DNA of 64,000 bases. Origin: Mytilus edulis (lineage: Eukaryota). The DNA lies in assembly GCF_963676685.1 (NCBI RefSeq), contig NC_092350.1:59892001-59956000 (forward strand). The letters run 5' to 3'. Both the position numbers and the translations under genes were made by a program. Each line of letters begins with the position of its first letter. The stretch's first letter is position 1. Of the stretch, positions 54,387 through 55,870 are shown one piece after another. Under the pieces are notes generated by a model that did not search any database, was not told the origin of the DNA, and saw only the letters and a program-made list of their open reading frames with translations.

Positions 54387-55870
54387 CTAATTTAGATTCG
54401 ACACTTGAACAATCATCTTAGCATCGTCGCCTTGTGTCATGAAACTGGTAGCGCGATAACCTCTGGTATCAACATCATGCCACGTAATTTGATTTGTAAT
54501 TTCCCATTGGTTTCTTGCCATAGCAGTGTTTAGGTCTTCTGTTGCCATTGTAAATTTATCTACCCATTGTATCCAAAATCCGTTAAGACCAATAAATGGA
54601 ACGGTGTAAAAAATACATAAATACAGATCTCTGCCCGCCATTTTATAGACGACTACTCCTTCAGCCCCACATAGACCAAAGGGTGTTTTATAAAACCCGA
54701 GTGTTCCATTTCTGTCAGGATCTATTCTGTTTCGGGGAATACCGAATATTTTCCCACTGGTTTGAAAAGCACTCAGGTCAACTAATGCTGCATCTGATGT
54801 ATTCTTTATCATTAAACTGACAGACTTCCCACTCTAAAAGAAATATTGTTTTAAAAAATCAAGTCGACATTACAACAAGTAGCAACAATTAGCAATATAT
54901 TAATGTGATACGATAAAATTGCATGCAAGATGCCTCCAAGTATAGACATTTCAAATAGATTCGCTAATGATTATTTGAATTTTATTGACATTAAGGTGAC
55001 TTTTTCATCTATGCAAAAATATTCCTGTGTTTTAATAGCATTATCTGTAAGTTTGAAAAAAATAAAAACATTTGGATAAATGTCGTAGATGGGGAACTAC
55101 AATAAAAGAACATACTTTATTCTTTTCTTTTGGAGTGATGATTAATAATTACATTTACAAACATGTATACTGGGAGGGATGTCAACATATATGTTTATGT
55201 TGTAATGTATACATGTCAATTGCAGTTCCTATTATAATGTTGTCACATATATCAATTTTACTATTTTCGTAGTAAATCTTCTTAGTTAACTAACATTTAA
55301 AAAAGTCATAAAAGTATTGAGACGAAATAATATATACAAAATTAATAAAAGAAACAATAAAGCGATGGCCAACATAAACTCGCGTATTGAACAAACAATA
55401 GTAATGCCAAACAAACAACGAGCATGCGAACTACTCAACCCATAATTAAGAAAGTTAGATCGCAGATGTACAGATGATTCATCGTTGACCCCATGTTACT
55501 ATGAGAAAACAGGAACAATAATAATGCACACCAACAGACTTAAATCAATACAATTACCATACATTACACTTGAATCCACAACAACATGAACATGATGAAT
55601 CAAATTATAATAAAAGAAAAGTTACCCGCTAGTGCATCTGATAAAATCAGGCTAGTACTAAATCATGAAATACATTTTACCAATTACGAAATGAGACAAT
55701 AAGTCTAATTCTTTGCACACACTTATATCATTCAAGTCTAGATTAATCTTTATAGGCGCAATATATTATGTTGACATTTGATATTTACTTACATCCATTG
55801 TTTTTGCTAGTTCTGCTAGAACCACTAGCGCCTCTTCAACGCCCTCAACTGCTGCTTCTTCTTCGGCCAT
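54387..55870 (-). CDS. Actinoporin-like (anemone cytolysin family) protein, 174 aa, 2 coding exons
   Basis: Exon 55870-55793 (MAEEEAAVEGVEEALVVLAELAKTMD, donor GTAAGT) spliced in phase 0 to 54833-54387 (acceptor cttttag; SGKSVSLMIKNTS...). Actinoporin pattern: KSVSLMIKNTS, FQTSG...P..I, FYKT...GAEGVVVYKM, LCIFYTVPF...NGFWI, SFMTQGDDAKMIVQV. No signal peptide. Confidence 0.85.

What the first reader, a model, noticed from the sequence alone, without database searches (positions are those of the whole stretch)
54387..55870. Divergent leaderless actinoporin-like gene next to the lectin cluster
Seen: an intact two-exon 174-aa ORF that the ORF track only partly captured. The N-terminal segment, a separate phase-0 exon, is strongly acidic and helix-like (7 Glu, 1 Asp, 1 Lys in 26 aa). 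There is no signal peptide, the usual SVPFDYNLYSNWW membrane-binding segment reads TVPFIGLNGFWIQW (shorter, no Asp/Tyr cluster), and two Cys are present. Established: actinoporins bind sphingomyelin through this aromatic/phosphocholine site and insert the N-terminal amphipathic helix; actinoporin-like proteins occur in molluscs. Inference: altered lipid or glycan specificity and possibly pH-dependent or cation-selective pore formation. Lying ~11 kb from secreted lectins, it may form a recognition-plus-effector defence locus, although linkage alone does not show this.
Basis: partly seen in the sequence, partly recalled or inferred. Interest (0 to 1): 0.7.

Follow-up and report, generated by a model that had tools for sequence, protein, structure and literature searches.

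The report
Overlooked bivalve actinoporin-like gene lineage
This is a real, spliced mussel gene whose protein is predicted to fold like sea-anemone pore-forming toxins but lacks their export signal and lipid-recognition residues, and it likely belongs to an old bivalve branch of the family that published surveys seem to have missed.

Summary
The gene is real. Reads confirm the splice, and the 174-aa product equals a RefSeq Mytilus edulis protein. The upstream exon is non-coding and in-frame stops precede the ATG, so there is no leader. The predicted fold is actinoporin (pLDDT 92.6; Z 24.5 bryoporin, 23.8 FraC). The sphingomyelin site is mostly gone. Leaderlessness, a short loop, cysteines and loss of sphingomyelin specificity are already published for mussel mytiporins.

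What is new: the gene groups not with the mytiporins I could sample but with leaderless proteins of mussels, ark clam, oyster and scallops (20 rows, 96/95; AU p=3.7e-5). It also has a different intron position and is not among the named accessions of the 27-gene catalogue. The strongly acidic N-terminus is specific to this gene.

The lectin link is weak. The gene is the only actinoporin-like locus found inside a 1.4-Mb PAN/C-type-lectin array, its intact paralogues have no lectin neighbours, and the neighbouring lectin was near-silent in the 3 runs that showed this gene. Likely a membrane binder and weak or conditional pore former; function untested.

The parts
57024..57053 (-). Non-coding upstream exon (3' end at 57024; 5' end not defined)
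   Evidence: Loose end of the X1 contig maps here with 2 mismatches, none expected by chance; GTAAG donor follows
55889..57023 (-). Intron in the 5' UTR
   Evidence: GT..AG ends; inferred from one contig
55871..55888 (-). 5' UTR part of the first coding exon, with two in-frame stop codons ahead of the ATG
55793..55870 (-). Coding exon 1: 26 aa, acidic N-terminal segment with predicted amphipathic helix 11-25
54834..55792 (-). Phase-0 intron (959 nt) between helix exon and beta-sandwich exon
   Evidence: joint read in X24, X1, X4
54387..54833 (-). Coding exon 2: whole predicted beta-sandwich and second helix, 148 aa + stop
54208..54386 (-). 3' UTR; AATAAA at 54232-54227
   Evidence: X1 contig ends at 54208; hexamer read
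38812..43379 (+). Neighbouring PAN-domain exon and C-type-lectin exons, likely one secreted lectin gene, convergent with the ALP gene (context, not part of it)
   Evidence: PF00024 E 0.0033 and PF00059 E 0.00033, both under the curated cut-offs; exon joining not shown by reads

Best explanation
This is an expressed, leaderless mussel gene for a protein predicted to have the actinoporin fold, likely a member of an old bivalve lineage separate from the mytiporins, which likely binds membranes through hydrophobic loops rather than a sphingomyelin pocket and would form weak or conditional pores with its N-terminal helix. Shown: gene structure, splicing, absence of a leader, loss of the aromatic/phosphocholine residues. 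Predicted: fold. Inferred: the protein is made in the cytosol and reaches its target after non-classical release or cell damage; docking uses the exposed apolar loops (residues 77-80 and 106-109); helix 11-25 leaves the sandwich and lines an oligomeric pore; the role is in epithelial defence or digestion. Its place in the lectin array is most likely incidental.
For: Fold: pLDDT 92.6, pTM 0.88; Foldseek E 2e-13 to FraC, EqtII and Fav; Z 24.5 and 23.8, rmsd 1.9, 161-162 aligned residues from model residue 8, so the N-terminal helix sits where alpha-1 does. A profile of 19 clade members with no canonical ALP finds bryoporin at E 1.4e-13 and FraC at 1.3e-12. The N-terminal segment is 26 aa with hydrophobic moment 0.42 and mean hydrophobicity 0.34 over 11-25. 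Against the seven POC residues named in PMC5198562, 2 are identical, 1 conservative and 4 lost, including all three Tyr; W112/Y113 fall in the shortened loop (my mapping through the profile alignment). Lineage: 20 rows form one clade at 96/95, apart from the 24-row mytiporin/tereporin clade at 100/99; pulling the 8 Mytilus-type rows into the latter is rejected, p-AU 3.7e-5. 17 of 19 mytiporin-type loci of this genome show a phase-0 acceptor in mid-domain; this gene and its two intact paralogues read through there. Read variants: 6 synonymous and 5 non-synonymous over 114 and 408 sites, ratio about 0.23. Precedent for weak pores without sphingomyelin preference: MYTP1 (PMC9645577).
Against: No assay exists for any member of this clade. 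A zebrafish ALP binds membranes without cytolysis (as cited in PMC8778704 and PMC6231492; the primary paper was not held). The N-terminal segments of the clade vary widely, and 9 of the 13 measured have mean hydrophobicity at or below 0.07, which argues against conserved pore formation. Net charge -7 on the N-terminal exon would oppose entry into anionic membranes at neutral pH. A sister relation between this clade and the mytiporin/tereporin clade is not rejected (p-AU 0.12). I saw sequences of only 4 named mytiporins plus MYTP1, not of numbers 9-27. The Pfam score is 17.6 bits, under the cut-off of 25.
Confidence: 0.55

Rival explanations
1. A non-lytic membrane or lipid binder: the sandwich docks on a lipid or glycan, but the acidic N-terminal helix stays folded back or serves as an interaction surface, as reported for a zebrafish ALP.
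For: No leader; N-terminal segments are poorly conserved and mostly polar across the clade; the fold is also shared by nakanori (Z 19.3), aegerolysins and fungal lectins; zebrafish precedent as cited.
Against: In this gene the helix has actinoporin-like length, position and amphipathy, and the 3 read variants in that exon are all synonymous.
Confidence: 0.28
2. One reading: a recognition-plus-effector defence locus in which neighbouring PAN/C-type lectins mark targets and this protein perforates them, perhaps triggered by low pH.
For: Lectin exons lie 11 kb on one side and about 25 kb on the other. The broken copy 12.4 Mb away also has PAN and lectin exons within 5-22 kb.
Against: 38 of 87 PAN matches of the genome lie in C7 58.9-60.3 Mb and only this one ALP locus was found there. 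The two intact paralogues at 69.6 Mb have no PAN or lectin match in 90 kb. In the 3 runs that show the ALP transcript the PAN bin has depth 0-0.4 and the middle lectin bin 0 (only X24 is raw reads, and the lectin gene may be absent from those animals). The lectins look secreted while this protein has no leader.
Confidence: 0.1
3. It is simply one of the already catalogued mytiporins, for example one of the short-loop group 11-20 or the divergent pair 25/26.
For: The paper reports a loop shorter by 3-4 residues in mytiporins 11-20 and a basal place for 25/26. Its Pfam threshold of E 0.05 might have caught this protein.
Against: The M. galloprovincialis orthologue VDI19116.1 is not in Table S1; its length of 174 is under the stated minimum of 176; its 5-member 90% cluster has no record named mytiporin, although such records are in the collection. 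This genome has other candidates for both groups: 5 short-loop exons inside the mytiporin clade and a basal locus on C12 with a broken partner.
Confidence: 0.15

Closest known systems
Mytiporins of Mytilus galloprovincialis (Koritnik et al. 2022, PMC9645577)
   Same: Mussel actinoporin-like proteins, mostly leaderless, with degenerate sphingomyelin site and cysteines; some have the shortened beta7-beta8 loop; presence-absence variation and pseudogenes.
   Different: Separate clade from the members sampled; no significant pairwise BLASTP match to a MYTP1-like protein (best E 6.9); intron between helix and sandwich instead of mid-domain; C-terminal tail 4 residues against 12-72 in 9 of 10 rows measured.
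Cnidarian actinoporins (FraC, EqtII, sticholysins)
   Same: Predicted fold, size and position of the N-terminal amphipathic helix.
   Different: 15-21% identity; no signal or propeptide; POC tyrosines, W112/Y113/W116 and RGD absent; two cysteines.
Bryoporin (moss, PDB 7pud; PMC9526159)
   Same: Best structural and profile match (Z 24.5; E 1.4e-13); compact 175-residue chain.
   Different: Bryoporin keeps the full aromatic loop and forms octameric pores; here the loop is three residues shorter.
Zebrafish actinoporin-like protein (as cited in PMC8778704, PMC6231492)
   Same: Actinoporin-like family; membrane binding not specific for sphingomyelin is what this sequence also predicts.
   Different: The vertebrate row in my tree (Latimeria) keeps the 7-residue loop and lies outside this clade; the zebrafish protein itself was not compared.

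Membership tests
Actinoporin-like proteins (AF superfamily, PF06369) | Beta-sandwich flanked by two helices | tested here: met
   Predicted model, pLDDT 92.6; Z 24.5/23.8, rmsd 1.9
Actinoporin-like proteins (AF superfamily, PF06369) | Sequence homology to the family | tested here: met
   Clade profile E 1e-13 to 1e-11 to bryoporin, FraC, EqtII; paralogues P0010 and P0011 pass the Pfam cut-off, this protein alone does not (17.6 < 25 bits)
Cnidarian actinoporins | POC site S54, V87, S105, P107, Y133, Y137, Y138 | tested here: not met
   2 identical, 1 conservative, 4 lost (mapped through; residue list)
Cnidarian actinoporins | Sphingomyelin-recognising D109, W112, Y113 | tested here: not met
   Loop has 4 residues between Pro and Asn instead of 7, without Asp, Trp or Tyr
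Cnidarian actinoporins | Signal peptide plus propeptide; no cysteines | tested here: not met
   In-frame stops before the ATG, acidic N-terminus, Cys81 and Cys99; SignalP itself was not run
Cnidarian actinoporins | N-terminal amphipathic helix | tested here: met
   Predicted helix 11-25, hydrophobic moment 0.42
Cnidarian actinoporins | Sphingomyelin-dependent oligomeric pore | not testable with these tools
   Needs liposome and bilayer assays
Mytiporins (27-gene catalogue) | Descent within the mytiporin clade | tested here: not met
   p-AU 3.7e-5; tree has 4 named mytiporins, 8 similar database proteins and 11 own-genome exons, not mytiporins 9-27 by name
Mytiporins (27-gene catalogue) | Listed among the 27 sequences | tested here: inconclusive
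   Accession absent from Table S1, length under the stated minimum, no such name in its cluster; most ON-series sequences could not be read
Molluscan ALPs as described in PMC12197748 | N- and C-terminal extensions and added strands/loop | tested here: not met
   26-aa N-terminus, 4-residue tail, 161-162 of 174 residues superpose on bryoporin/FraC
Molluscan ALPs as described in PMC12197748 | Cysteines present | tested here: met
   Two
Molluscan ALPs as described in PMC12197748 | Hexameric pore on anionic lipid | not testable with these tools
   No assay
Lectin-plus-effector defence locus | Conserved linkage with lectin genes | tested here: inconclusive
   Present at this locus and at the broken copy, absent at both intact paralogues; other species not readable
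Lectin-plus-effector defence locus | Co-expression with the neighbouring lectin | tested here: not met
   Lectin exon bins near zero in 3 of 3 runs that show the ALP transcript; few runs, low depth

The most novel reading that the evidence does not exclude
Pteriomorph bivalves (mussels, ark clams, oysters, scallops) carry a second, ancient and uncatalogued actinoporin-like lineage that works from inside the cell: leaderless, with a rebuilt lipid-binding face aimed at a non-sphingomyelin target such as parasite or vacuole membranes, and with the pore helix on its own exon so that paralogues tune gating independently; this copy would be an acid-gated member.
Probability: 0.25. Interest if true: 0.65.

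Novelty: new variant of a known kind. Interest (0 to 1): 0.4.

Why it matters
Published work treats mussel actinoporin-like genes as one recent expansion and counts zero or one such gene in oysters (PMC9645577; PMC6231492). A separate lineage shared by four bivalve orders, with four Saccostrea records, would change that history and those counts. It would also supply compact natural variants with a different lipid-binding face for asking what non-venomous animals use this fold for. It is not a new kind of system.

Tried and rejected
Upstream signal-peptide exon: rejected; the upstream exon found is non-coding and two in-frame stops precede the ATG. Artefact or unspliced ORF: rejected. Single-sequence PDB search with exon 2 found 0 matches at E 10; only the profile and the fold search worked. 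No run was on record as an RNA holder in the index; of 6 distinct runs laid, X24, X1 and X4 showed the transcript and X21, X22 and X3 did not. The first AU test (p 2e-42) mixed several constraints and is not relied on; replace it. The N-terminal boundaries were wrong for several relatives and were redone from the alignment. Whether the basal C12 loci carry a signal peptide, as mytiporin-25 does, was not resolved. A Cys81-Cys99 disulfide is unlikely from the strand register (inference; no coordinates available). Rows left out of the tree: near-duplicates P0003, P0006-8, P0014, P0044, P0015, P0030; fragments or non-homologues P0012, P0025, P0026, P0051, P0052, P0057, P0061, P0062; P0021; own-genome loci with stops (L020, L021, L025, L026), L009, L011, L013, L014 and the broken copy. 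No complex prediction was run. Literature searches; none showed a description of this clade, but most subscription papers are not searched. Earlier scan findings: none.

Full report
Observation. Coding exon 1 (55870-55793) gives 26 residues with 7 Glu, 1 Asp and 1 Lys; exon 2 (54833-54387) gives 148 residues and a stop. The phase-0 intron has canonical ends and is removed in 19 raw RNA reads from 6 start places in run X24 and in contigs of X1 and X4. Three other runs laid (X21, X22, X3) did not show the gene. Each exon translation equals its part of RefSeq protein XP_071121514.1 of Mytilus edulis, annotated as uncharacterized; the M. galloprovincialis orthologue VDI19116.1 is 96% identical. 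The X1 contig runs 18 bases past the ATG and jumps to an exon ending at 57024. Those 18 bases hold two in-frame stops, so no upstream exon can add a signal peptide to this frame. Of 11 variant sites in reads, 6 are synonymous and 5 not, over 114 and 408 sites, a ratio near 0.23 on a small sample.

Fold. Alone, the protein scores weakly against PF06369 (17.6 bits, cut-off 25) and exon 2 finds nothing in the PDB by sequence. A profile of 19 close relatives finds bryoporin at E 1.4e-13, FraC at 1.3e-12 and EqtII at 1.3e-11. The AlphaFold2 model (pLDDT 92.6) matches actinoporins by Foldseek at E about 2e-13 and by VIA-align at Z 24.5 (bryoporin) and 23.8 (FraC), rmsd 1.9 over 161-162 residues including the N-terminal helix. 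The ESM Atlas agrees.

Binding site and helix. I mapped FraC numbering through the profile alignment and took the residue list from PMC5198562 (passages). S54 and P107 are kept, S105 is Thr, and V87, Y133, Y137 and Y138 are replaced. The loop carrying D109, W112 and Y113 is three residues shorter and has none of them; W116 is Gly; RGD is absent. The membrane-facing loops are still apolar (residues 77-80, 106-109). Helix 11-25 has hydrophobic moment 0.42 and mean hydrophobicity 0.34. The N-terminal net charge of -7 is the most acidic of the 13 clade members measured, which otherwise range from -5 to +2, so strong acidity is a property of this gene and not of the group. An acid trigger would also need the protein to leave the cytosol (inference).

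What is already in print. From PMC9645577 I read the abstract, introduction, most results, the discussion, one methods section and the text of the supplement; its figures are pictures and could not be read. It lists 27 mytiporins of 176-462 aa, 7 with a signal peptide; a loop shorter by 3-4 residues in numbers 11-20; a non-conserved sphingomyelin site; and weak hexameric pores of MYTP1 on anionic lipid. PMC12197748 (one section and passages) names cysteines and terminal extensions as typical of molluscan ALPs.

What differs. The nearest relatives are not named mytiporins. They are uncharacterized proteins of Mytilus, Tegillarca, Saccostrea and four scallops, plus unnamed assembly records. In a 54-row tree these 20 rows form one clade (96/95), apart from a 24-row clade of named mytiporins, tereporin-like proteins and mytiporin-type exons of this genome (100/99). 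Forcing the 8 Mytilus-type rows into the latter is rejected (p-AU 3.7e-5). A sister relation of the two whole clades is not rejected (p 0.12), and no cnidarian actinoporin was in the tree, so the deeper placement is open. All 20 rows have 4 residues between the loop Pro and Asn; 12 of 12 named or similar mytiporin rows have 7; 5 of 11 own-genome mytiporin exons have 4-5, which fits the published group 11-20 and means the shortening likely arose more than once. Gene structure agrees: a mytiporin-type query finds 19 places in this genome, none of them this gene or its paralogues, and 17 of the 19 show a phase-0 acceptor in mid-domain, where this gene and its two intact paralogues at C7 69.6 Mb read through. 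One paralogue checked has the same helix/sandwich intron. VDI19116.1 is not in Table S1, is shorter than the stated minimum, and its cluster holds no record named mytiporin although such records are in the collection. I could not see mytiporins 9-27, so 'uncatalogued' is likely, not shown; the single oyster genes counted in that paper might belong to this clade.

Lectin neighbourhood. PAN-domain and C-type-lectin exons lie on both sides. They are part of a large array: 38 of 87 PAN matches in the genome fall in C7 58.9-60.3 Mb, and only this ALP locus was found in that span. The two intact paralogues have no such match in 90 kb. In the three runs with the ALP transcript, the neighbouring PAN bin has depth 0-0.4 and the middle lectin bin 0; the last bin (up to 12 in a contig run) borders a repeat. 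This is a small test and the lectin gene may be missing in those animals. Synteny in other species could not be read.

Mechanism. Most likely (0.55) a leaderless actinoporin-fold protein that docks on membranes through apolar loops without sphingomyelin preference and forms weak or conditional pores with its N-terminal helix, in epithelial defence or digestion, by analogy with MYTP1. Rival readings of function: non-lytic membrane binder (0.28) and lectin-coupled effector (0.1). Separately, there is a chance of about 0.15 that it is an already catalogued mytiporin. Binding, pore formation, location and role are all inferred.

Verdict. A real gene of a known fold and family, with known kinds of divergence, but likely in a separate and older bivalve lineage that surveys missed: new variant of a known kind, interest 0.4.

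Noticed in passing
G000 C7 58.9-60.3 Mb; window 13616-13927, 27312-27683, 34748-34984, 38812-43379: A tandem array of at least 38 PAN-domain exons interleaved with C-type-lectin exons, with smaller clusters on C1, C5 and C9. One search for PAN domain + C-type lectin + Mytilus + apple found 0 papers. It may deserve its own look.
   Followed up: partly
L039:5006-6124 (G000 C7 47.545 Mb): Frameshifted copy of the gene, about 80% identical including introns, next to PAN and lectin exons.
   Followed up: partly
L002, L004 (G000 C7 69.61 and 69.62 Mb): Two intact tandem paralogues, 48% and 43% identical; one is XP_071123702.1.
   Followed up: yes
P0038 / P0014: A further clade member recorded for M. 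galloprovincialis and M. edulis has no close match in this genome (best 36%), which suggests presence-absence variation.
   Followed up: partly
window 54809-55793: 4 reads of X24 carry an exon-2 start two bases shorter than the window, possibly a transcribed frameshifted allele or copy.
   Followed up: no
window 55370-55559: Low read and contig coverage inside the intron in X24 and X1: a rare cassette exon or a repeat.
   Followed up: no
P0023: An 861-aa protein, likely bacterial, joining FG-GAP repeats, a papain-like protease and a C-terminal actinoporin-like domain that has the same 4-residue loop; weakly placed next to this clade (88/80, long branch).
   Followed up: partly
P0019, P0021: Unnamed proteins with two actinoporin-like domains in tandem.
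   Followed up: no
window 1529-8011 and 21599-23740: Mutator-like transposase fragments and a 713-codon reverse-transcriptase frame.
   Followed up: no
window 44870-46900: A repeat with very high, strand-biased RNA coverage in X22 and many rearranged joints, probably reads from other copies.
   Followed up: no
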